Shown here: piece after piece, positions 9,306 to 58,700 of the stretch
Position numbering within the stretch: position 1 is the stretch's first letter
Layout of the letters: the number at the start of each line of letters is the position of its first letter
Assembly (NCBI RefSeq): GCF_004010195.1
Contig: NC_057734.1
Span: forward strand, 44,167,606-44,231,605
Origin: Chiloscyllium plagiosum
Lineage: Eukaryota
DNA length: 64,000 nucleotides
Direction: 5' to 3'
The notes under the pieces: generated by a model
Told to the model about the DNA's origin: nothing
Databases searched by the model: none
What the model saw: only the letters and a program-made list of their open reading frames with translations
Position numbers and translations under genes: made by a program

Positions 9306-9634
9306 TCAAATGCAGCTTGATTTCCTGATGCTTTGCTCAAGTGTGGAGCTGAGGGTCTGGTGTTGCACCCCGCAGGAGTAAAGCTCGTGTGAGGTCCATT
9401 CAGAAGCTGACAGAGTGAGGTAACTCCTTACACTGTATGTCTGGTCAGAGTCCTGTAGGGTTGAGCTCGTCTGGACGCCGGTCTGCCTGACTTTGCCGTC
9501 CACACTCCACACCAGCGTCACCGACTCCGGGTAGAAATGACTGACCATACACACCAGCGTCGCCTCGTTGGCTCCTGCAATTTGCTGTTCTTACGGGAGG
9601 AGGAGCAACACTGTGGGCTTGCTTGGCTGACGAC
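9306..9634 (-). pseudogene. IGLC: IgL cluster A constant exon with premature stop
   Basis: About 97% identical to the cluster B C exon (10 differences counted). TCA changed to TAA at 9591-9593. Downstream poly(A) hexamer reads AACAAA (9084-9089). Confidence 0.93.
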
Positions 9635-12600
9635 CTAGAAGCAAAAGGCCAAACACTCCTTGTGAGTTCACTTACACATATGAATTATAAACAGTGTCAA
9701 ACCCGTATTTAAACACCGAATATATCTGATTCTGAGCTGTAGAGACCTGCACTTGCCATGGGTTTATATTTCTGAGAAATTTTACTTGGATACATATATA
9801 CTCATTAGTAAGTTCAACAAACATGTACAAAGCCGAATATCCTTAAACTGCAACTAGAAAACGAAGCGTTCTGTCACTCAGTCTTGCCGAAGAGTCTGAA
9901 AATTGCTGTTGTTACGCAGACATATTTACAATGGGCTAAAAAATGTATCTGATTATTTTGACGACTAGCTCTCAAAAATCGATGTACATATTGGCAAGGA
10001 GGAGTGGTTCTTTGTAAAATAGTACAGCATTTGACACTGGGGGGCTGCATTTTGAGAGCACTGCAGCATCAAATGCTGTGTTTCAGTAAGATGGTGGTCA
10101 TGACATTCGACTAAGAGGTGAAAGGACCCCAGTTCAAAATCAGGCCAAAATCATCAATGCTACTCTTGTTTGGGGTTGCTGTCGTGCAGTGGCAGCATCC
10201 CTACCTTTTGAGGCTAGGGGTCCAGTTTTAAGTCCCATTCATTCGGGTAGTGTGTAATAAACAGACACTCTGCTTGCTGGCAATCAGGGAAATAAAAACT
10301 GGCACAAAGTCTTTTGTATTCACAAACACAGAACTTGCTCGGAAAACTCAGCAGATCTAGAAAAACTGAAGAAGGGTCACTGGAACTTTGAACATTCTTT
10401 CCAAAGACGCTCCACGTTCGCAGTCCCCAGTACTCACTAGCTGAACATTTCATGATGAGCACCCTTAATGTATTTGCGTGGACAATTTCAAGCATAAAAT
10501 ACGTCTAAACTACAGGCATGTTATTTTAAACCCGACTGCTTTGTGACAGAATCGAAGAATGTGATGCTGGAAAAGCACAGCCGGCCAGGCACCACGAGAA
10601 GCAGGAGAATCGACGTTTCGAGCATAAGCTGTGCATCAGGAAAAAAACCCTCTTTGACTCTGATCTCCAGCATCTGCAGTCTTCACTTTCTGCCTTGTGA
10701 CAGAGACTGGCTTCCATTTCAAATTGCGTAGCAATGTGTACAGACTTCCACGAACATCAAGCAAAGACAACTTTCTCCAAATTGTATATTTGACACACCC
10801 TTAGTCCGGCCCGTCTGAACTGATGTGAAACTAAAAAAATGTGACATTTATTTCAACTGCAATTTACATGATTTAATTCAAGTACTTCAAAAGTGTACTT
10901 CCTGGTAATGTGCGCTGATATCTGAAACCATTAATCATTTTTGAAGAAAATTGAACCATTATGCTTCAGGACGTGATATAACCACAAGTGAACTTCCAAT
11001 TACAGGAGACTTATGGATATTCAGACATGTCGGCAATTAAATAAGGTGAAGTATAGCAAGTTGCGTTAGAGCTCTGTGATGCAGTGTTCCGATCTCCTAT
11101 CTATTTCAGGGGTGTATAAACACACTTCGAAACAAAAATTATCTGCAACGATTACACCAATTCGATTTTTGAACCAATACCACCGAATATTATCAATATT
11201 GAATCGTCCTTCACAACGACTTCTAAATTGCGTTAGTTATATTTTATATTGATTGTCCCAGTATCACTCGGCTGAATTTTATTCACTCCTATGAAGACTA
11301 CTGACCACTAGCAATGCCAAAACAAAGTTAGGCAGAATTATCTGGAGGGGATCATCAGTTGTGCATGGTTATTCCTTTCTCTGAGAGGCTCACGCGAAAA
11401 TTACCGAACTCATTTACATAGATACGCCTGTGACTGTAACAGAACCATTTTCTAAATTATTTGTGTTAACTCTAAACAGAATATGGGTTTTCCATTATTA
11501 ATATTCCCTAGCGCAAGGTCTTTGATCTGCAAATCCTAAGCTACATTTTCCAATTTATCGTTTCCTTACCAATAAAACACGTCACCGGGATCACTGTATC
11601 CAGCCCAATCGGCCAATTATTGCCGAATTCTACTGAGGGGCCCGATTTTCTGGAGATTAGCCAAATCCAAGATCCACATTTAGACCCAAATTACAGCGCG
11701 GGATCAGGAATGTCGCTGCGAGAGTTTATATTTCACCCGAATTCCCCGTTTGAAAGTCAGGATCTGCCTCCACCACAGCCTTAGGCAGTACATTCCCGAT
11801 CCTGAACACACCGCGTCTAAAATGTTTCTCCTCGTGTCGCCTTTGGTTCTTTTGCGTTTCACTGTAAGTCTGTGTTGTTTGGTTTGCCACCATACCAGCA
11901 ACGGGAACGATGTCCCCCAGTGAACTCTGCCTAGACATTGCATGGTCCTGGACGTCCCTATCAAATCTTGTCAGCTCCTCATTTTCTTTCAGGAGAACAC
12001 TCTGCTTCTATAATCAATCTGCATCACTGAAGCTCTGAACAGTGGAACCATTTTCATGCACGTTTTCTTTACACATCTCTAAAGCCCTCACAATCCCTGC
12101 CAACTTGATCCTAAAGCACCTGTTGTGGCCGATTTAGTGTGTTATGAAAGTTCATGAAAACTTCCTTGCTTTTGTAATCGTTCCTCCTATTTTTAAGCCC
12201 AGGATTCCGAAACTCTTTTTTTTAAGTTAAAAAAGCTCAACCCGTCCTGTCTTTAAAGATCTCATCTTGTGCCCACAAATTCCCGTGCCTGTCTCTGTTC
12301 CTCTGTCCACTGTAGAATTCCATTCATTTTTCCCCCATTACCCTTCCTTACACCATGACCTCCGTGCAATGTCCTCGGCCTGTCATCACACTAGTCATTC
12401 TTGAAATTCAGTGTTATCTTCCGTCCAACTCACAGCACTCCCAAGTTTTTGCATCAGGCTAACGTTGCAATTGTGCACAGTATACCAAAGCCCACTTTAT
12501 TCCTATAGATCAGTAAGCAGCAATCTCAGGGGGGCTTCACTACATACATTCCTATAGCCCAGAAAGTAACCCATTCACCGTGATTCAGTATTCTGTCTTT

Positions 12601-13785
12601 CAACCTGCTCGCTAGCGACGCTGTTCCTTTTCATCCATGGCTCCCTTGGACTGGCACTGTCGGTGTCTGATTTCTCCAGGTTAGGAAAAGACCCGCACAT
12701 TTCTGCCTGGTAACAGCAACAGTTTAATCCTGTTTCACGTTAGAAGATCCATGGGATATTATTTCCTTGAAATTAGAGCAAGACCAGTGTAGGGGCTGTT
12801 TCTGGGACAAGTTCCTTGCCGGGATTCCTCTGGGGGCCTGAAGATAATCCAATTCTACCTGCCGATGTGGAACATGGTCATGAAACCACCCCGTGGTTTG
12901 GTGCAATTTACACGAATGGTCTGCAAATGGAAACAACGTTGACCCCCGTTTCTACATGGGTTAACTTCTTGGGTTTGAGCAGAGCTAGGCCAAAGGCAGA
13001 TATTTTACTAGCCCATGGGGGTAGTGTTGGTGTGGGAGGGGTGCCATGGGATTCATGGAGTATAACGTGTTGGTTGAATCCCCCGATTGTTTCCTATCAA
13101 CATTGGCTTTTCCAAGACGGATCTCCAGTTGTTAATGGTTACCCGCTCATGCAGTGGTGGGAAATGGAAGGTAGAATTAGCCCCCAGTCAGCATTGCCGT
13201 GCCATTTTTACTGGAGGTAAGCCCTCAGTCGATGTGCTTGCAGCAACTTTAGGCAGACTGTATGAAATTTTGTGGGGATCATCTCATGATATAGCTCTCT
13301 ATTTGACTCTCTGCTCTCACCTCTGCTCCTGGAGGCTGCCCCTATCCCCCCGCTCCTCACTGACGCCGACTCCATGGTAAATCCATGAGTGCTGGAGAGG
13401 AAGCGCCGCTGCGCCTAACATTAAGCCAGCGAGTGCGCGACTCAAACAGGAGGGCTCGGGACCCGGAGGTATTCCCTTCATCTGCCTGTAAAAATAAACT
13501 AATTTCTCGTCTCTAGGTCATTGAATCACTCGGACGGACGTTTGGGGTACTTGAGGATTGGAAGAGGTTTGGAACACGACTGAAATATCAAGTTGCAGTT
13601 AAGTGAAACTCGCAGTTCCAACGTGAAAACGAGTTTCAATTTCCATCCATCACCATGTTTCAAGCTATTTGAATTTAAACCGCCATATCATTGATTATTG
13701 GAGAACATGGTAGGACTCCAAAACGAAGCTTCTTAATATTTTAAAAACGCCTGACTCATTAAATATATAACATACTAATCAACCT

Positions 13786-14773
13786 GGTATTTTTTTTTGA
13801 GGACGTAACTCTGAAGATGGACGAGGGAGATCCAGTAGATGTAGAGTACCTGGATTTTCAGAAAGCTTTTGATAAAGTCCCAAATAGGAGGTTAGTGAGC
13901 AAAATTAGGGCGCATGGTATTGGGGGAAAAGTACTAACTTGGACTGAAAGTTGGTTGGCTGATAGGAAACAAAGAGTAGTGATAAATGGCTCCATTTTGG
14001 AATGGCAGGCAGTGACCAGTGAGGTACTGAAGGGATCACTGCTGTGACTGCAGCTTTATACAATATATGTTAATGATATAGAAGATGGTATTAGTAATAA
14101 CATTAGCAAATTTGCTGATGATACTAAGCTGGCTGGCAGGGTGAAATGTGAAGAGGATGTTAGGAAATTACAGGGTGACATGGACAGATTAGGTGAGTGG
14201 TCAGATGCATGGCAAATGCAGTTTAATGTGGATAAATGTATGGCTATCCACTTTGGTGGCAAGAACAGGAAGGCANNNNNNNNNNNNNNNNNNNNNNNNN
14301 NNNNNNNNNNNNNNNNNNNNNNNNNNNNNNNNNNNNNNNNNNNNNNNNNNNNNNNNNNNNNNNNNNNNNNNNNNNNTAGGTTCACGAGGTCACTTCCTGG
14401 AATGGCGGGATTACCTTACACTGAAAGACTGAAGCGACTGGGCTTGTATTCCCTTGAGTTTAGAAGACTGAGAGGGGATCTGATTGAGACATATAAGATT
14501 ATTAAAGGATTGGACACTCTGGAGGCAGGAAACATGTTTCCGCTGATGGGTGAGTGCCGGACCAGAGGACACAGCTTAAATATACGGGGTAGACCATTTA
14601 GGACAGAGATGAGGAGAAACTTCTTCACCCAGAGAGTGGTGGCTGTGTGGAATGCTCTGCCCCAGAGGGCAGTGGAGGCCAAGTCTCTGGATTCATTTAA
14701 GAAAGAGTTGGATAGAGCTCTCAAGGATAGTGGAATCAAGGATTATGGAGACAAGGCAGGAACAGGATACTGA
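13786..14773 (+). mobile_element. CR1 LINE RT/C-terminal fragment inside the J-C intron of cluster A (contains a 100-N gap)
   Basis: YLDFQKAFDKVP, KFADDTKL and RRLRGDLIETYKI motifs. Absent at the paralogous site near 54025. Confidence 0.9.
14276..14375. other. Assembly gap (100 N)
   Basis: Run of N. Confidence 0.99.
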
Positions 14774-15559
14774 AATTTCAGCTACAGATCGACTTTTCCT
14801 TCTGTAATATCAGTGGCTCTTAAGATCAGTTCATCACAGTTTTAACCTGAGCGACAGCATGGGGCTATGGTGACAGATCCAAATGTAGTTTAGGATTACC
14901 TCATCATTTGCTGGTGGTAAATGATAGATCACCTCCGTCTCCCACACACACACTGTACATCTCATTCAGTACAAGCAATGTATTTGGTTCGTAAGAGTGC
15001 AGGTCAACCCATGATCACTGAATGTGTAGAAGGAGCAGTGATGGAAAGAGGGCAAATTCTCAGAACATTGCTCAGCATTGAGTCCCCCACTTTGACGCCG
15101 CTATGAGCGTCCTCCTTGATTGTGTGACAGGCTGGAGCTACCAAAGGGAACCAGGTAGACAGAGAATGCATTCAACATCGAGTTACTTCTATATAGTGTG
15201 TCAGTTAGTTCAGTTGCCTGGATGGCTGTTAAGCGGGGGTTCAATTTTTGGACCAGTTGAGGTTACCATGAAATGTCCAGCTTTTCAACCTCTCCCTCAC
15301 CTGATGCCTCTCAGGTTAAACCAGCTCCACTTCTCTCTCTCTCTCGCTAATGTGTGAACCGTCCTCTGGGAACATTATTCTTTTCACATCGCATTATAAT
15401 TTTAATTTTAAAAAAAAGATCCTATAGTTTGTTTGTTGTAACAGCGGGCAAATCAGATTCAGTCTCAGGACCAATTTTATAGGAAATTGACAAAACAAAC
15501 ATTGCGTTTACATGCCGAATAGCAATTTGATTTAGAGGCGTATAGAATAAGTCACTTAC

Positions 15560-15904
15560 TCAGAATATTCAGCTTGGTTCCGCTCCTGAAGTACCCGATG
15601 TAGCTTTCGTCATATGAGTAACAGTAATAATCGCCAGCGTCCTCCGGCTGCACGTTAGTGATGGTCAAATATCCCACGTTGGTTGATTCTTCTTCCAGGC
15701 CGATAAATCTCTCCGAGAAACCCTCACCTCTGTCATCGGTCCCATACAGGATAAATCTTGGGGCTCTGTCCCGTTTCTGGTGGTACCAAGAAATATAGCT
15801 TTCTGAAAGGTCGATTCCGTGGACTGTACAGGTCAGGCGAATAGTTTCTCCAGGTGTTGTGGACTCGAAAGCTGGTTGGACCAAGCGGACCTCCGCGCTC
15901 GTGT
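15560..15904 (-). pseudogene. IGLV: IgL cluster A germline-joined VJ exon (open frame, J motif FRSG)
   Basis: 345-nt exon with intact splice sites and ~25 differences from cluster B. CDR3 is YSYDESYIGY. Conserved FGXG is changed to FRSG. Confidence 0.92.
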
Positions 15905-16069
15905 CTGTAAAACAGATAAACTATTTCATGATTAAAATCCACCGGTAAAACGAAAACCGTTCGACAACGTAACATTCAGATCATATCAGATTCTGGATTA
16001 GGCCTAGGCTTTATTTTAAAGAAAAATTCCTAACGCTAAAGAAATTACAAGTATTTCGATGACACTTAC

Positions 16070-16110
16070 AAGTCAGACCAATTGTGAGCAAAAGCAGACG
16101 TGACGGTGCT
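16070..16110 (-). pseudogene. IGL: IgL cluster A leader exon with start codon deleted
   Basis: Retains ..LLLLTIGLT T|GTAAGT, but alignment to cluster B shows a ~17-nt deletion removing AATGGCCGTTACTCTTG, which includes the ATG. Confidence 0.85.
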
Positions 16111-27689: not shown

Positions 27690-27829
27690 NNNNNNNNNNN
27701 NNNNNNNNNNNNNNNNNNNNNNNNNNNNNNNNNNNNNNNNNNNNNNNNNNNNNNNNNNNNNNNNNNNNNNNNNNNNNNNNNNNNNNNNNNNNNNNNNNNN
27801 NNNNNNNNNNNNNNNNNNNNNNNNNNNNN
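27690..27829. other. Assembly gap (140 N)
   Basis: Run of N. Confidence 0.99.
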
Positions 27830-49530: not shown

Positions 49531-50802
49531 CTAAAACAAGATTCCTGATCTTCCAGAGGCCTTCCAAGGTTAATGGATAAAACAGTCCATGTTCACCACT
49601 GGAAATGTGATTTCAATTTGATATGTTCCATTTAAAGTTTTGTGTTTGACACAATAACATGAGATGCCTCTTTCAAATGGGTCATTTTACTGGCAGCTTT
49701 TATTGCACTTTCTTTTGTCTTTTTTCATTTCTTTTATCAACACAGAGATCACTAATGTTAACATTTCTGTCAGTGTAGTCTAAACATGATTCTAAACAAG
49801 TTGAGCGGAACCTCCTTGCAGTTGAATGTCATCCCTTTAAGAAAGTCTGTGTATGGGCACTGCATTGGGTTAAAATGTTACTTCGTGCTTTAACCAATAC
49901 TGGGTTTCAAAAAGAGGCAAGATCATGCCAGTGGGGCTGATAATGAACTGCTTGGGATCAACACTCCGAAAGGTGATGATGTTGGTTTGCTGACACTGGT
50001 GGAAAATTCAACACGCTTGGAAAATTCACTTGGTCTCTAACAAGAAACTGTGATGTATTTAAAATATCCTTTTCTGCCCCGCCTCAATTATTTCTTTAAT
50101 TAGCAAGGCAATCAAAAAGGGATTGCCATTTTGCGATTGGAGAGTGTAAAGAAATGACCGACATTATATAGCGCAGTTCACAGCTTTGGAACGTGGCCAG
50201 GTTTCACCACCAATAAAATACTTTTTAAACTGTGGTCTCAACTCCATATTGTCACTCCATTCATTGCCTGTTAATCTATCTAGCTCAGTCTTAGAGCATT
50301 CAGTGATCCAGCCTAACAGTGCTCTCTGGAGAAGAGAATTCCAAAGAATCTGAGAGAAAAACAATCCTCATTTTCGGCTAAAGTAGATGACTTCGTATTT
50401 TTACATTCTGTCTCCTTCTTCAGGTCCCCCTCAAAATAGCACCTCACCACTTCTGTTAACTTTTCTTATTGTGTTGCCCACCTCCTTCCTGACCGACTTT
50501 TTTTAAAAATCTAGAAGTCAATGTTTAAATATTTGATTTTTTTTCTCTGCATTTTTCATAACTGTCTAGCAGACGGATTCCCTCGCAGGAAGGGGATAAG
50601 GATGCACAGGAAAATATCACAAATCCAACAAACTCCTGCTAATCTATAAGCTAATAGAAAGTAGCATCTATTGGAGGTACACACTGGAGTCAGTCGGTAT
50701 CTGCTTGTCAGTCTCATTTTCTGACACGTTCACTGTGAATCCTTTATGGTGAATTTGGCCTTCATGTTGCAAGATATAAAATATTTTGCGTACTCATAAT
50801 AT

Positions 50803-50808
50803 TTTATT
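50803..50808 (-). terminator. Polyadenylation signal of cluster B
   Basis: AATAAA on the - strand ~217 nt after the C stop codon, with an adjacent ATTAAA at 50810-50815. Confidence 0.65.
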
Positions 50809-51024
50809 ATTTAATCGGTTCTAAGAATAAGAAGTTAAAACAGTACACGCAAATGCAATGGCATTATTTTGCTTAAAGATATGAAGGTCAAGCACCCTTA
50901 CTTTTCAAAAAGTGATCAACATTGTAAAATTGGATGGGATTCAAATTAAGAAACAGGGGCAAATTATTTTTAACAGGTAATACAGAAAATACGTTTTTAA
51001 CAATAAAGCATTTTAACATCTTCA

Positions 51025-51353
51025 TCAAATGCAGCTTGATTTCCTGATGCTTTGCTCAAGTGTGGAGCTGAGGGTCTGGTGTTGCACCCCGCAGGAGTAA
51101 AGCTCGTGTGAGGTCCACTCAGAAGCTGACAGGGTGAGGTAACTGCTTACACTGTACGTCTGGTCAGAGTCCTGTAGGGTTGAGCTCGTCTGGATGCCGG
51201 TCTGCCTGACTTTGCCGTCCACACTCCACACCAACGTCACCGACTCCGGGTAGAAATGACTGACCATACACACCAGCGTCGCCTCGTTGGCTCCTGCAAT
51301 CTGCTGTTCTGACGGGGGGAGGAGCAACACTGTGGGCTTGTTTGGCTGACGAC
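51025..51353 (-). CDS. IGLC: Ig light chain cluster B, constant exon (C1-set, lambda-like)
   Basis: Acceptor TTTCTAG|GT in phase 1, matching the J donor. RQPNKPTVLLLPPS..ATLVCMVSHFYP..W..YSVSSYLTLSASEW..YSCGVQH..KSSCI*, with the penultimate Cys for heavy-chain pairing. Confidence 0.96.
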
Positions 51354-54300
51354 CTAGAAACGAAAGGCCAAACACTGCTTGTGAGTTCACTTACTCATCT
51401 GAATTATGAACTGTGTCAAACACTTACATTTAAACACCGAATATGTCTGACTCTGAGCTGTAGAGACCTGTACTTGCCATGGGTTTATATTTCTGAGAAA
51501 TTGTATTTGGATACAAATAACATGAGCACGTTCAAGAACATGTACGAAGCCGAATTTCCTTAAACTGCACATGGAAAGCGAAACCTTCTGCCACTCAAAG
51601 TCTTGCTGGAGAAGACCGGAGAGTCTGAACATTGCTGTTGTGACGCAGATACATTTAGTTCGGTTTTTTAAAAAAAGTCTCTGATCATTTTGAGGAACTA
51701 GCTCTCAAAAATCAATCTATATATTGGCAAGGAGGAGTGGTTCTCTGTGAAATAGTACAGAGTCTGACTCTGGGAGGCTGCATGTTGAGATCACTGCAGC
51801 TTCAAACGCTGTGTTCCAGTAAGATTGTGGTCATGACATTCGACGAAGAGGTGAGAGGAGCCCCTTTCAAAATCATGCCCAAAATCATCAATACTGCCCT
51901 TGTTTATGGTGTTTGGGGTAGTTGTGGTGCAGTGGCAATATCTCCTTTCTTAGACTAGCGGACTCAGTTTCTAGTCCCATTCATTCGGGCAGTGTGTAAT
52001 AAACAGACACTCTGCTTGCCGGCAATCAGGGCAATAAAAATGAACAAAGTCTTTTCTATTCCCAGACAAAAACCGAAATTGCTCCGAAAAATCAGGTCTG
52101 GCAGAACTGAGGAAGGGTCACTGGAACATTAATTCTGCATTCTTTCCAAAGGTGCTCCACATTCGGAATCCCCAATACTCACCATCTGACTATTTCCTCA
52201 TGAGCATCCCTTATGTAGGGGTGTGGACAATTTCAGCAGAAAATAGGTTTATACCAAAGGCATGTTATTTCACACCTGACTGCCTTATGACAGAAACTGG
52301 CATCGGTGTAAAATTGCTTAGCCATAGCTCTGTGGACAGACGTCCACTGATATCAAGCAAACATAACTTCCGCCAAATTATAAATTTGCCACACTCTCAG
52401 CCCAATCAGTCTGAATTGATGTGCAGCATAACATTTGTGATATTTATTTCGACTCCAACCTACTTCATTTAAATATTTTATAGATGTACTTTCTGGCGTG
52501 TGCTGATATCTGAGATTGTTGGTCATTTTTGAGGATGTGATATGATCACGAGTCAATTCTGAATTAGAGGAACTTTGCTTCGGATATCCAAGCGTGTCGG
52601 GAATGAAATAAGGTAAAGTGTAATAAGTTAAATTAGAGCTCTGGGATGCAGTATCCCGATGTCTGAGTCCGTGTTCAAATCCTACCTGCTCCCAGCGTCC
52701 ATAAAACACTTCGATGCAAAAATGTCTGCTACAGATTGCATCAATTCAATTTTTTAAAATCAAATACCACTGAACCCTGTGAGAATGGAGTGGTCCTTCA
52801 TGAGGACTGTTCAATTGCTTTGATTGAATCGCCCTGTTGAATTTTATTTGCATCTATAAAAACTTCTGAATATTCCACCACTAGCAATTTCTGAACAAAG
52901 TTGGGCGGAATTATCTGGAGGGGATCATCAGTTGTGTATGGTTATTCCTTTCTCTCGGAGGCTCACGAGTAAGTTACTGAACATCTTTGCATTCTTACGG
53001 TAACCTTAGCAGGAATGTTTTTAAATTGTTTGTGTTAACTCTAAAACTGAGGATGAGTTTTTCGCTATTAATATTTCCTAGCGTAATGTCTTCGACACAG
53101 TAAATCTCAAACTACATTATCCAATTTATCTTGTTTTGATCAATAAAAAAACGTTACCAGGATTACCGTTTCTGAATGGTTTCCCTTCATGTTCCTCAAG
53201 GTTTGAGCAGAGATCGGCTAAAGGCGGGTATTTTACACACTCATGGATTTGGTGTTGGTGTGGGAGGGGTGACATGAGGAAATTTGGAATGTAATATGTT
53301 GGTTGGGTTCTCGATTGGTTCCCGTCAACATGAGCTTTTCCCGGACTGTTCTCCAGCTGTTAATGGATTCCCCCCACCCCACCCCATCCCACTCCCCAGG
53401 TAGCAGTGGGGAATGGAGGGGAGACTTGGCTCCTATTTGGCATAGCAATTCCTTTTTTTTAAAATTGGAGGCGAGCAGACCCCTAAGTCTATATGCCCAA
53501 GGCAAGTTTAGGCGGATCATATGAAGCTTTGTGGGGATCGCTTCAAGATGTAGCTCTCCAACCGCCTCACAACTTTCCTTGAAGGCTGCTCCCATTCCCC
53601 TGCTCCTCACTGATGCTGACTGGATGGGAAATCCATGGGCGCTGGAGTGGGGGCCAAACAAGCGGCCACTTTGCATAACGAGTACGCGGTGCAGCCAGGC
53701 GGGCTGGTGACCCTGCAAAACTAACTTAATCAGTGGTCTTTCAGTCACTGAATGATCCGGGCGGCCGTTTGGTATAGTCGAGGACTGGAAGAGGCTTGGA
53801 ACACGACTGAAAGATCAGTTTACACTTGGTTAAGGAAGACTCGCAGTTCCAACGTGAAAACGAATTTCAGTTTCCAAACACCATCGCAGTTCAGACTACA
53901 GTATTTGGATTTAAACGGTCACATGTTTTTGATTATTGGAGAACATGCTGGGACTCCAAAAAGAAGCTTCAGTAGGTTTTAAAAATATCTGACCTATTAA
54001 ATATATCACATACAATCCAACCTAATATTGAAATTTCAGCTATAGATCGACTTCTGTACTACCACTGGCTCTTAAAATCAATAAATAGCAGTTTTAATCT
54101 GAGTGACAGCATGGGGCTGTTTAGCTAAAGTGACCGATCTGAATGTTGTTTAGGATTACCTTACCATTTGCTGGTGCTAAAACAGTAGCTCGCCCCCGTC
54201 TTCCATTCACACACTGTACATCTCATTCACTACCAGCAATAAATTTGGTTCGTAACAGTGCAAGTCGACCCATAATCACTGAATATGGAAAAAGAGCAAT

Positions 54301-54777
54301 GATGGAAAGAGGGCCCATTCTGAGAACATTGTGTCCTCCAGTTATAAGCTTCCTCTTTAATTGTGTGACAGGGCAGTGCTACCAAAGGGAAACAGGTATA
54401 CAGAGAATGCATTCAACATTGAGTAACTTGTACATAGGGGTCGGTTAGTTCAGTTGCTGGACGGGTGGTTAGCGCAGGTTCAATTTTTGAACAGATCGAG
54501 GTTACCATGAAGGTCCCACCTTTTCAACCTCTCCCCTCACCTGATGCCTCTCAGGTTAAACCAGCACGACCTGTCTCTCTCTCTCTTTCTAATATGTGAG
54601 CCGTCCTCTGGGAGTGTCACTCTTTTTTACATAGAATTGGTTTGTTTGTTTTAACAGCTGGCAAAACAGATTCAGTTTCAGAGGAACAATTTTGTAGGAA
54701 ATTGACAAAAGAAACATTGCATTTAAATTCGGGATCCGAACAAGTAATTTGATTTAGAGGCATAGAGAGGCACTTAC

Positions 54778-55122
54778 TCAGAACATTCAACCTGGTTCCG
54801 CTACCGAAGTACCCGATGTTGCTTTCATCGTATGAGTAACAGTAATAATCGCCAGCGTCCTCTGCCTGCACGTTAGTGATGGTCAAATATCCCACGTTGG
54901 TTGATTCTTCTTCCAGGCCGATAAATCTCTCCGGGATACCCTCGCCTCTGCTATCGGTCCCATACAGGATAAATCTTGGGGCGCTGTCTCGTTTCTGATG
55001 GTACCAAGAAACATAGCTTTCTGAAAGGTCGATTCCGTGGACTGTACAGGTCAGGCGAACAGTTTCTCCAGGTGTTGTGGACTCGGAGGCTGGTTGGACC
55101 AAGCGGACCTCCGCGCTTGTAC
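54778..55122 (-). CDS. IGLV: Ig light chain cluster B, germline-joined VJ exon (lambda-like)
   Basis: Acceptor TTTTACAG|GT. Translation EVRLVQPASES..LTC..WYHQK..DAGDYYC-YSYDESNIGY-FGSGTRLNVL. Donor A|GTAAGT. No RSS or spacer between V and J. Confidence 0.96.
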
Positions 55123-55281
55123 CTGTAAAACAGATAAAACATTTCAAGATTAAAATTCAAACGATAAACATGAACGACGACATTGTGTTCAGATCAAATC
55201 AGACTCTGGATTAGGCGTTTGCTTTAATTTTAAAAATGTTCTTAATGCTAAAGAAATTGCAAATATTTCGACGACACTTAC

Positions 55282-55327
55282 AGGTCAGACCAATTATAAG
55301 CAATAGCAGAGCAAGAGTAACGGCCAT
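55282..55327 (-). CDS. IGL: Ig light chain cluster B, leader exon (MAVTLALLLLIIGLT, phase 1)
   Basis: ACAATGG start context, hydrophobic signal peptide, 46-nt exon ending T|GTAAGT. A 159-bp intron leads to the VJ exon, and the frame is continuous (T|GT = Cys). Confidence 0.92.
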
Positions 55328-55374
55328 TGTGATGGCACGATGAAGCAGGAGTATTCGGATCAGTGAATGTAACG

Positions 55375-55458
55375 TTTTATATCAAAGTCTTGAACAACTT
55401 GAATGGCACCGTCTGATTAAATAGGCAAATATATTGTCCTCCCGACATTGTCGATTGG
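55375..55458 (-). promoter_or_regulatory. IgL cluster B proximal promoter: TATA box, variant octamer (ATTTGCCT), CCAAT box
   Basis: On the - strand: TATAAAA 55375-55381, ATTTGCCT 55423-55430, CCAAT 55454-55458. Spacing is the same as in cluster A. Confidence 0.75.
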
Positions 55459-55692
55459 CCAACCGAGCAGCATCCACGTTCTTGTAACCAATTGCGTCAG
55501 TCACAACAGGAAATTCTCGCGATAGAATTCAACTTGTGCACACTCCCTCCTCCTCAATCAGATAATTCCCTTACATTTTCGCTACGACTTTAACTAAAAT
55601 TCAAAGACTAAAATGTTTCAATGCTCATATTTAGTAAAACCTCACATTTGATCAATGGCTATATTTTAAATCAATTGCCTCATATAATTTAC

Positions 55693-55700
55693 ATTTGCAT
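55693..55700 (+). promoter_or_regulatory. Perfect distal octamer (reverse orientation) upstream of cluster B
   Basis: ATTTGCAT on the + strand. The homologous site in cluster A (16477-16484) reads ATTTGCAG. Confidence 0.4.
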
Positions 55701-58700
55701 TAGGGCCATGTATTTAACAATTTCGTCATTTGAATCAATAAAGTTGATTACTAATTTTAGACTAAATATATCAGCGTTAGTACTGTTTATTCTGTGCTTA
55801 GAATATGCGGTGAGGCACCAAGCGCTATTTTAAACTTGCGGAAAGTGCAAAAGTGCCGCAAATATCCTTTATAGGTAAATTTATAAACTTCTAACTCTTT
55901 ATTTATTTTTTAATCAGTCAGTGCAACTCGTTGAGGGCCCCTCTGTGGAATGGCCGATGGATTGAATTCACTCATCTGAAATATCCAGGATTTAAAAAAA
56001 CATCGTTAGCTTTCTCCATTCCCCCCTTTCTGTTATATTGCTTGAATGCTCCTTTAATTTATACATTTCCAGCAAAAATTGTGTTGCAAAATTTCCGGGC
56101 TTCCAGGCATTGATATTGGTACAAAGGTTAATCCTTTCACGAACTGACCTCGGATCTCGGTGTCATGGGGTAACATTCACAAGATATTGCTCATCAACAT
56201 AGATGTTTCGCTGATATGGAAGAATGTATATTTGATGTTTACTATAGGACATCATTGTGGAAATGGTGCCACTGCAAATTCATTTATGACGAATTTCTAA
56301 ATGTTGTAAATCGAATGTTGACAAAAGATCCATCTTTTGAGTTGAACAAATTGTCGAGTGATTCTCTGCTTTAAGTTGCAGTGCTTGGGACTTGGGTTTT
56401 CTATGCATTCACATTAGCATGGAATAAATTTGGAATTTAAAGGATGCAGCATTAATATCTTTGTAAAGTATGAGTATTTGTGAGGGGTTCATGTTTTGCT
56501 TGCAGTCCTATGCTTAGATGTTGTCTCTGTAACCATTTATAGAACGGGGAATCCCCAAGCAAGAACTACTCAGAGTTAACCAAGGCTGTCTGCATTGCTT
56601 AACTACAGAATAAGCAAATATTGAAGATATGTTTAGTGTTTCTACATATACACGCTGTGACATTGAAGCAGGATATTTTACGTGCATAATGCATGATAAC
56701 ATACTTTTCTAACATTACTTCTTGCACCTTCTATTGTGTAATAAAATTGCACTCAATCATAACTTTTTTGCCATTCATGGTTGAAGTCAATATTGCTTCC
56801 ATTACACGTGTGTTCAATGATAATGCAATGACTCACAAAATAGCGGCTGTATTTTAGCTTTCTCCATTTTCCCTCTTGCTGTTATATTGCTTGAGTGCTC
56901 CTTTAATTCATACATTCATTCACCCACCACTCCCAGCCAAATTTTGTTGTGTAATTAATCTTTGCTGCATTCATTGAATGGCCAGACCTCATCAGACAAA
57001 TGAGCCGACCAGATGACAGAAAGTAATCTACCCATATTTCCACGCAGTTTGTATTCTAAACAGGTCTGATCGAGGGCAAATGACTTTCATGATAGATGTG
57101 GCTTGTCACATTGGGTTAAACACTATAACAAAAGCAAAATGCTGCCGATCCAAAATACAAACAGAAATGCCGTAGAACCTCAGCACGTCTAGTGGCGTTT
57201 CTTGAGGAATAACCAGTTAATGTTTCAATTTCAATGTGTCTCTTCTTCAAATGATTTTTTTAAAGTTCTGAACAGTCCCATGAGACAGGAAACATTAACT
57301 CTGTTTCTCTGTACAGGTGCTGCCAGACCTGCTGAGCTTTTCCAACATTGTGTTTTAAATTTCTGCCAGGAGAGGTGTTTATAAAGCAGATGGGTAAACT
57401 TACCGCACCAGCGAATGGTTTGATGTCAACTTAAGCCAGACTTTGACTTAGGCAATATTGCCTTAACAATGTGATAAAACTCATGAAATACAATACATAT
57501 AGCATATACTTTAGACCCCAAAGATTATCATTCCGATAGTTTTTTTTTGTTATACTATTATTTCAGAATTCTCAAGTTACTTTTTTTGTCACCAATTCGA
57601 ATTCTCTCCACTCCTTATTTTTAATAGTTGTGGGTCTCAATCTGCTTGAATACTCAGGCACTCTGAACGCGGCAATCCCATTATTTTGCTGTGTATTTAC
57701 TAGTTTGTCCTGTTTGAATCATGTAGAACTGGACGATTGTAAAGGGACTCTGGTAGAACCGTTTATTCATTGCAAAGAAATCCGAAACTGAACGCCAAAT
57801 TATCAACGTCAATTCATGAGTAGCGGCCTCTCTCGACAGGATTGTTCACCAAATGTGCTGTCAGTCTTTCCTTTTTTGAGGCGAATAAACCCGGCTTTGG
57901 AAATTTATCGAGCAATTAGAGTCTCCAATCACTAGACCAATTCTCAATACTCTTTTCTAAATCAGGTCCAGTGGTTCAACAACCACTACTGTATGTGAAT
58001 CAGAATTGAACACAATATGGCAGTTGCGGCCCGACGAGTGCTTTATGAAGTTATACCATACGCTCCTTAGTTTTATAATTTTAAGACTCTTTAGAAAGAC
58101 TAGAACCTTGATTAATTTTTAAATGCTTTCTCAGTCTGCCCCGCCACTTTCAACGAATTGTACACATCTACACCCAGGCTCCTGATCGTGTGAAAATATA
58201 TTTTTTACACTTTTTTTCATTACTTTCCCACTTCATTTTCCGAACCAAGTCCATAGCTGCACGCCTTTCTGAATTAAATTGCTTGTGCCTGTGCCCACTC
58301 GTTCCATACCATTTTCACTATTCACAATAATTTCATGGTTTGCGTCTTCAGTACATTTTGGAATTAACGCTGTACACCCAAGCCTAGGACATTGATTTTT
58401 TTTTAAAAAAAGTTATTTAAACAAATTGTCCTCAAACTGAGTGACGTGCCAGGCTTGTTCAGAATCAATCCCGTTGCCATGGTTCTGGAGTTGTGTGCAG
58501 GCCAAGTCAGGTATAAACAGTAGATTTTCTTACCAGAAGTACATAAGTGAACCCAGTGGTTTCTTACAACGCCTTTATATTTTGATGACCATTGTTTACA
58601 GTGTCAGCTTTACTCTGAAAATGTATTTTTCCATCTAAATTTCACGCTGCCACAGTGAGATATGAATTCATAATCCCACAATATGAGCAGGGTCATTGGA

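What the first reader, a model, noticed from the sequence alone, without database searches (positions are those of the whole stretch)
51025..55327. Intact germline-joined (pre-rearranged) VJ light-chain gene: a RAG-independent, invariant antibody chain
Seen: V runs straight through a 10-aa CDR3 into J (YYC-YSYDESNIGY-FGSG) within one 345-nt exon. There are no heptamer/nonamer RSS, yet the leader-V and J-C introns are retained, so this is not a retrocopy. Established: cartilaginous fishes have cluster-type Ig loci, and germline-joined L-chain genes are known, notably in the lambda/type II isotype. Inference: this gene encodes a fixed-specificity light chain that could diversify only by somatic hypermutation or conversion, and whose allelic exclusion cannot depend on rearrangement.
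Basis: partly seen in the sequence, partly recalled or inferred. Interest (0 to 1): 0.7.

Follow-up and report, generated by a model that had tools for sequence, protein, structure and literature searches.

The report
Pre-joined shark lambda antibody light chain
This is an intact, transcribed shark antibody light-chain gene inherited with its V and J pieces already joined, the long-known normal state of shark lambda light chains, so it is ordinary apart from belonging to an old side branch of that family shared with chimaeras.

Summary
Observation confirmed. Minus-strand leader (46 nt), 345-nt VJ exon and 329-nt C exon, with GT-AG introns and no recombination signal, give a 239-aa chain identical to a RefSeq model. 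It is not an assembly artefact: near-identical junctions occur in two other shark species, and the exact junction occurs in contigs of 4 of 8 public runs laid. J-C splicing is seen. Isotype is lambda (type II/NS3): V+C trees group it with sandbar-shark lambda (97/93) and reject kappa, sigma-2 and a lambda-2-like chain; SMARCB1, BCR and MIF lie 4-7 Mb away. All 10 V exons of this cluster are joined, as reviews state for every shark lambda gene, so the phenomenon is textbook. 'Invariant' and 'RAG-independent' overreach: hypermutation was untestable here and the join likely arose by germline RAG action. Modest additions: the gene belongs to a divergent lambda subfamily with its own C domain, present from elephant shark to bamboo sharks; the window holds a second, pseudogene copy that is a mosaic of its neighbours; paralogues differ mainly in CDRs. 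The scan earlier noted a joined kappa gene elsewhere in this genome.

The parts
55282..55327 (-). Leader exon (46 nt, ATG at 55327, GT donor), gene B = the finding
   Evidence: spliced leader joint skipping 159 nt, CT..AC on + strand, 0 differences in a contig of run X1
54778..55122 (-). Joined VJ exon, 345 nt (end of leader, FR1-FR3, CDR3, J)
   Evidence: contigs with 0 differences in X10, X11, X12, X14
54809..54838 (-). Fixed CDR3, 10 codons, no RSS
54778..54808 (-). J part (FGxG motif) and GT donor at 54777
51354..54777 (-). J-C intron, 3424 nt, GT-AG
   Evidence: skipped in X10 contig (depth 218) and 3 X15 reads
51025..51353 (-). C1-set constant exon, 329 nt with stop; penultimate cysteine
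50803..50808 (-). AATAAA polyadenylation signal
   Evidence: poly(A) loose ends at 50784 in 22 X15 reads, which mostly carry the paralogue's letters
55375..55460 (-). Proximal promoter: TATA-like box 54 nt, octamer with one mismatch 103 nt, CCAAT box 133 nt before the ATG
   Evidence: motif consensus recalled; function untested
55693..55700 (+). Perfect octamer 373 nt upstream, absent as a perfect site in paralogues A and C
15560..15904 (-). Gene A (pseudogene) joined VJ exon, 345 nt, 320/345 identical; FGSG changed to FRSG
16070..16100 (-). Gene A leader remnant: 17-nt deletion against gene C removes the start codon
9306..9634 (-). Gene A C exon, 319/329 identical, in-frame stop near its start

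Best explanation
It is an intact, spliced, germline-joined V-J-C minicluster gene of the cartilaginous-fish Ig lambda (type II/NS3) isotype, which likely supplies B cells with a ready-made light chain that would pair with a rearranged heavy chain. Shown: exon layout, open frame, no RSS, same junction in several samples and related species, J-C and leader splicing, lambda placement by tree and by neighbouring genes. Inferred: an ancestral split V and J were joined once in a germ cell by RAG before sharks and chimaeras parted; copies then duplicated and their CDRs diverged in the germline (replacement changes 0.257 per site in CDRs against 0.038 in framework between genes B and C); in a B cell the gene needs only transcriptional activation, any further diversity would come from AID hypermutation, and exclusion would act on transcription or H-L pairing rather than on rearrangement.
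For: Gene model and ORF, identical to P0016/XP_043571257.1. 10 of 10 V exons found on G000:C25:44.14-45.25 Mb are in-frame joined with 0 RSS. Junction YSYDESSIGY in C. punctatum P0014 and YSYDDSYIGY in H. ocellatum P0019; full-length joined models in Stegostoma, Rhincodon, Mustelus, Heptranchias, elephant shark. Exact junction in contigs of X10, X11, X12, X14 (4 of 8 runs laid, 2 studies); J-C joint in X10 at depth 218 with 0 differences in the VJ part; C-exon loose end at the J donor in X12. V+C tree: clade of 20 chondrichthyan rows with sandbar lambda, 95/91 and 97/93; AU rejects family+kappa (p 0.007), family+sigma-2 (p 0.007), family+lambda-2-like P0226 (p 1.2e-5). SNF5, Bcr and MIF domains on C25 at 48.2-51.1 Mb; that these flank human IGL on 22q11 is recalled. 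Reviews: all shark lambda genes joined. CDR-biased replacement, Fisher p 1e-6.
Against: Only 48-53% (V) and 56-57% (C) identical to sandbar lambda; single-domain trees do not firmly join it to classical lambda (V: unresolved; C: 84/86; not joined in the quick tree), and chondrichthyan lambda does not group with tetrapod or sturgeon lambda. No nurse-shark NS3 sequence was among my rows. On C alone the AU test did not reject family+P0226 (p 0.104). CDR pN is not significantly above pS (p 0.77), so positive selection is not shown. Runs X10-X14 have no library type on record; no protein, H-L pairing, tissue or hypermutation was shown. In single-cell run X15 most of 180 reads carry the paralogue C letters; X16 gave 0 reads. 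The proximal octamer has one mismatch.
Confidence: 0.9

Rival explanations
1. The assembly captured a somatic B-cell rearrangement; the true germline is split.
For: Blood-derived assemblies can hold rearranged alleles (general knowledge); no run of certain germline DNA was laid.
Against: Three paralogues and 7 further cluster genes are all joined; near-identical CDR3 in two other species; exact junction in 4 of 8 runs from 2 studies; an X14 contig runs from the intron into J and overlaps one covering CDR3, both with 0 differences.
Confidence: 0.01
2. It is the missing cartilaginous-fish orthologue of the lambda-2 isotype, or a separate isotype.
For: Own C lineage (94; 99/98 with the neighbouring subfamilies); only about 50-59% identity to classical lambda; Guselnikov 2018 left lambda-2 in sharks open; C-only AU p 0.104.
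Against: V+C AU rejects grouping with the one lambda-2-like protein I held (P0226, p 1.2e-5); the two published lambda-2 V regions I read have a short CDR1 and a CACHGC junction start, both absent here (compared by eye); it lies inside the lambda cluster, 63 kb from classical-type V L006. The label lambda-2-like for P0226 is mine, by eye, and its V is partial.
Confidence: 0.04
3. The VJ exon was never split: a relic of the pre-RAG single-exon V domain.
For: No split lambda gene is known in any cartilaginous fish; the family is joined in a holocephalan too; PMC12227049 raises an ancient link for shark lambda.
Against: Lambda sits among rearranging kappa and bony-vertebrate lambda genes, so a never-split state needs repeated RAG insertions at one place; CDR3 lengths of joined lambda genes range from 5 to 13 aa, as independent joins would give; germline joining by RAG-like activity is documented for shark kappa.
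Confidence: 0.03
4. It is a transcribed but non-antibody or non-pairing gene (UrIg-like secreted protein, or bystander transcript).
For: RefSeq's 'lambda-1 light chain-like' label is also given to UrIg2 and sigma-prime genes; bystander lambda transcripts in kappa-positive cells were reported by Iacoangeli 2017 (recalled; paper not held).
Against: Single C1 domain, L-chain length, retained pairing residues (Tyr after FR2 Trp, Gln, Pro of APRF, Tyr before Cys, Phe of FGxG) and terminal cysteine (sequence; roles recalled); framework and C under purifying selection; best natural-length PDB matches are antibody light chains.
Confidence: 0.04

Closest known systems
Cartilaginous-fish Ig lambda (type II; nurse shark NS3; sandbar shark lambda, P0065/P0070)
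   Same: VJ-C minicluster, joined in the germline, no RSS, same clade in V+C trees, same genomic cluster as classical-type genes (L005, L006).
   Different: Separate subfamily: V 48-53%, C 56-57% identical to sandbar lambda; own C lineage; 10-11 aa acidic CDR3.
[quoted passage not shown]
   Same: Identical 239-aa sequence.
   Different: Automatic label, not diagnostic of isotype; no statement on joining or function.
Elephant shark light chain cDNAs AFK11423.1, AFM88275.1 (P0288, P0289) and model XP_007906701
   Same: Same subfamily (99/93), joined junction shared by genome model and cDNAs but for one residue.
   Different: About 60% identical; 11-aa CDR3.
Germline-joined NS4 (kappa) genes of nurse shark (PMC2193156) and joined type I (sigma-2) genes of skate (PMC2192082)
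   Same: Inherited VJ join; CDR-biased replacement among germline copies (abstract of PMC2192082).
   Different: Other isotypes; NS4 joins are recent and have split relatives, this join is ancient and has none.
UrIg/UrIg2 (PMC12227049)
   Same: Single-exon VJ domain with split leader.
   Different: Those have several C exons and are not light chains; this gene has one C1 exon.

Membership tests
Ig light chain | Split leader, one VJ domain with Cys-Trp-Cys and FGxG, one C1 domain, terminal cysteine | tested here: met
Ig light chain | Spliced transcript | tested here: met
   J-C joint in X10 and X12, leader joint in X1; library type of these runs not on record
Ig light chain | Made in B cells and paired with a heavy chain | not testable with these tools
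   no tissue labels, no protein data
Chondrichthyan lambda (type II/NS3) | V+C clade with labelled shark lambda chains | tested here: met
   95/91, 97/93; labelled rows are sandbar shark lambda; no NS3 row
Chondrichthyan lambda (type II/NS3) | V and C each group with classical lambda on their own | tested here: inconclusive
   V unresolved; C 84/86, open
Chondrichthyan lambda (type II/NS3) | Germline-joined VJ, minicluster layout | tested here: met
Gnathostome lambda locus | Linkage to genes that flank tetrapod IGL (SMARCB1, BCR, MIF/DDT; recalled) | tested here: met
   3 of 3 marker families on C25, 4-7 Mb from the gene; identified by Pfam domain only
Chondrichthyan lambda (type II/NS3) | Diversified by somatic hypermutation (recalled for NS3) | tested here: inconclusive
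   contigs drop rare variants; only 3-6 raw reads per V position; AID hotspots 7/93 CDR vs 12/240 FR, p 0.43
kappa (NS4/type III) | Clade with kappa chains | tested here: not met
   AU p 0.007; V 38-44% identical
sigma-2 (NS5/type I) | Clade with sigma-2 chains | tested here: not met
   AU p 0.007; V 30-32% identical to own-genome sigma-2
lambda-2 | Clade with ray-finned-fish lambda-2 | tested here: not met
   one proxy only (P0226): V+C AU p 1.2e-5, C alone p 0.104; junction motif of published lambda-2 absent

The most novel reading that the evidence does not exclude
Shark lambda is two ancient lineages, and this gene marks an unrecognised subtype with its own C domain that has been kept joined, in a few copies, from chimaeras to bamboo sharks; its CDRs are retuned in the germline by mutation and exchange between tandem copies, giving an inherited, innate-like antibody specificity, on a locus that is the positional orthologue of tetrapod IGL.
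Probability: 0.3. Interest if true: 0.4.

Novelty: new member of a known kind. Interest (0 to 1): 0.15.

Why it matters
As a germline-joined shark lambda gene it adds little: the state is the rule for this isotype. Its use is practical: a fixed template with two close paralogues makes hypermutation and rearrangement-free exclusion easy to measure in a laboratory shark. The side results (two deep lambda lineages, linkage to SMARCB1/BCR/MIF, mosaic paralogues) would refine light-chain history if they are not already in papers I could not read.

Tried and rejected
No RNA holder was on record in the run search; run types X10-X14 are unlabelled, so none is used as a germline-DNA test. X16 gave 0 reads (no test); X3 held only a C-exon contig with 6 differences; X1 did not cover the junction. 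Somatic mutation could not be measured. NOD (Notch) search as a chromosome-9-paralogon marker: 3 hits, on C8, C11, C30, none on C25; one marker only. The careful 114-row V tree did not finish; the quick tree was used; 10 proteins were dropped by the domain regex, among them sandbar P0060; 5 long-branch or mis-split rows were left out or re-cut. PDB and Atlas searches gave only generic light-chain matches. AID-hotspot enrichment and CDR dN/dS above 1 were not significant. Criscitiello & Flajnik 2007 and Iacoangeli 2017 are not held. No fold or complex job was run: the fold is not in question. Earlier-findings search near this place returned nothing.

Full report
Observation. My RSS scan found 0 sites in 50700-56300 and 0 in the 10 cluster loci, but scored in 8 of the other 20 loci, which include split kappa and IgH genes; it also found the V-side RSS of split sigma and sigma-2 genes. 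The protein is identical to stored protein P0016, a RefSeq model labelled Chiloscyllium plagiosum 'lambda-1 light chain-like'. That label is not diagnostic, since NCBI gives it to UrIg2 and sigma-prime genes too (supplement table of PMC12227049).

Surroundings. The window is G000:C25:44167606-44231605. A V search gave 10 close hits on C25 between 44.14 and 45.25 Mb, all joined in frame to a J; a C search gave 11 there, one partial. Three genes form the finding's subfamily: B (the finding), A (same window, 39 kb away; start codon lost in a 17-nt deletion, stop in C, FGSG changed) and C (26 kb beyond the window; intact, P0015). A is a mosaic: upstream, intron 1 and the start of intron 2 side with C (204 sites A=C against 75 A=B), the VJ exon sides with B (29 against 14; Fisher p 7e-7), and the 3' part sides with B (156 against 89). 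Synonymous sites in V are split 7 to 7, so the excess is in replacement sites; unequal crossover or conversion in the germline is inferred, not shown.

Germline or artefact. Near-identical junctions occur in C. punctatum and Hemiscyllium; joined family members occur in Stegostoma, Rhincodon, Mustelus, Heptranchias and elephant shark, where two cDNAs match the genome model's junction but for one residue. Of 8 runs laid, 4 (X10, X11, X12, X14; two studies) hold contigs across the whole junction with 0 differences; X1 and X3 do not cover it, X16 gave nothing, X15 has 4-6 reads there of which most carry paralogue C letters (checked by hand at five sites). One of these runs could be the assembly's own animal. 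A one-off somatic join is excluded for practical purposes.

Expression. X10 holds a 350-nt contig joining J to C (skip 3424, depth 218, 0 differences in VJ, 2 in C) and covers exons only; X12's J end continues into C-exon sequence at depth 594; X1 holds the leader-V joint with 0 differences. Library types and tissues are not on record, so this shows splicing, not B-cell expression. Hypermutation could not be measured.

Isotype. With labelled rows (sandbar lambda, cat kappa, horn-shark sigma-2, paddlefish true lambda matched by eye to the Guselnikov supplement), V+C trees without CDR3/J put the family (99/93, elephant shark basal) in a 10-row group (100/99) that is sister to classical lambda (100/98); the two form a chondrichthyan lambda clade at 95/91 (42 rows) and 97/93 (39 rows). 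AU tests reject family+kappa and family+sigma-2 (p 0.007 each) and family+P0226, a lambda-2-like paddlefish protein (p 1.2e-5). Against: single-domain trees are weaker, C alone does not reject the lambda-2 grouping (p 0.104), identity to classical lambda is only 46-59%, shark lambda does not group with tetrapod lambda in my trees, and I held no NS3 or curated lambda-2 sequence. Independent support: SNF5, Bcr and MIF domains lie on C25 at 48.2-51.1 Mb; that SMARCB1, BCR and MIF/DDT flank human IGL on 22q11 is my recall. PMC12227049 places a shark lambda cluster in the chromosome-9 MHC paralogue (passage); in this genome NOD domains are on three other contigs and I saw no lambda-type gene off C25 among the 150 scored candidates per search, so that statement is not reproduced here, on thin marker evidence.

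How it likely works. Shown: it is a ready-made VJ-C unit that is spliced. Inferred: it was joined once in a germ cell by RAG, as reconstructed for shark kappa genes (PMC2193156, passages); varied CDR3 lengths of 5-13 aa among joined lambda genes fit several such joins. Since then copies diverged mostly in the CDRs: B against C, replacement 0.257 per site in CDRs, 0.038 in framework (p 1e-6), synonymous 0.21 in both, so relaxed or positive selection cannot be told apart; across 10 family members CDR3 differs at 54% of positions against 15% in framework and C. The same pattern was reported for joined skate type I genes (PMC2192082, abstract). In B cells the chain would pair with a rearranged heavy chain; hypermutation of NS3 genes (Lee et al. 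2002, title seen in a reference list; content recalled) and exclusion at the surface level (Iacoangeli 2017, title seen; content recalled) are the expected further steps.

What is known. Three papers state that all cartilaginous-fish lambda genes studied are germline-joined (PMC5192425, PMC4279169, PMC12227049; passages); NS3 V is used as a non-rearranging Southern control (PMC2435157, passages). Seven paper searches showed no paper on lambda subfamilies of bamboo sharks or on this synteny, but I read only passages of eight papers, the two key primary papers are not held, and supplements of most were not seen, so novelty of the side results is open.

Verdict. Real, intact, transcribed, correctly described; an ordinary member of a known kind in a divergent old subfamily. 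Interest 0.15.

Noticed in passing
window 9306-16100 (-): Second copy (gene A), a pseudogene with a perfect proximal octamer; mosaic of paralogues B and C. A Hemiscyllium model (P0019) with the A/B-type V also lacks the normal leader, hinting that the loss is old.
   Followed up: partly
G000:C25:44135494-44141887 (L061, L062): Third copy (gene C), intact, different CDR1-3; gives most of the reads in single-cell run X15.
   Followed up: partly
window 55423-55430 and 55693-55700: The finding's proximal octamer has one mismatch while A and C keep it; B alone has a perfect distal octamer in the other orientation, and is still transcribed.
   Followed up: partly
window 55282-55304, runs X11 and X12: A leader variant 6 nt longer, in frame, absent from the assembly: allele or unassembled paralogue.
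   Followed up: no
G000:C25:48.2-51.1 Mb: MIF, SNF5 and Bcr domain genes 3-7 Mb from the lambda cluster, suggesting positional orthology with tetrapod IGL rather than the chromosome-9 paralogon named in PMC12227049.
   Followed up: partly
P0226 (paddlefish, MBN3279082.1): Looks by eye like published lambda-2 in C and V, though PMC5985310 reports lambda-2 lost in Acipenseriformes; the model seems broken.
   Followed up: partly
L073 (G000:C45:12.48 Mb) and L080/L081 (G000:C101085): Two further joined VJ plus C1 genes on long branches near sigma-2, with counterparts in C. punctatum (P0208) and Heptranchias (P0275); fit none of the four isotypes cleanly.
   Followed up: partly
L011, L015, L017, L019, L028, L029: Joined kappa genes: in frame (L011), with a stop in J (L017) or out of frame (others, on unplaced contigs).
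   Followed up: no
L071 (G000:C39:27.806 Mb): Joined sigma-2 gene with a 6-aa CDR3 beside a split sigma-2 gene (L069).
   Followed up: no
G000:C25:44256230 (L036): Intact classical-type lambda C exon with no V found by pattern in the 25 kb before it.
   Followed up: partly
G000:C9:2.0-4.3 Mb (L020, L023): Large array of joined VJ-like exons with very short CDR3; earlier scan notes read such arrays as paired receptors.
   Followed up: no
window 14276-14376, 27690-27829 and 1-48600: Two N gaps (one inside gene A's intron) and many decayed LINE-type fragments.
   Followed up: no
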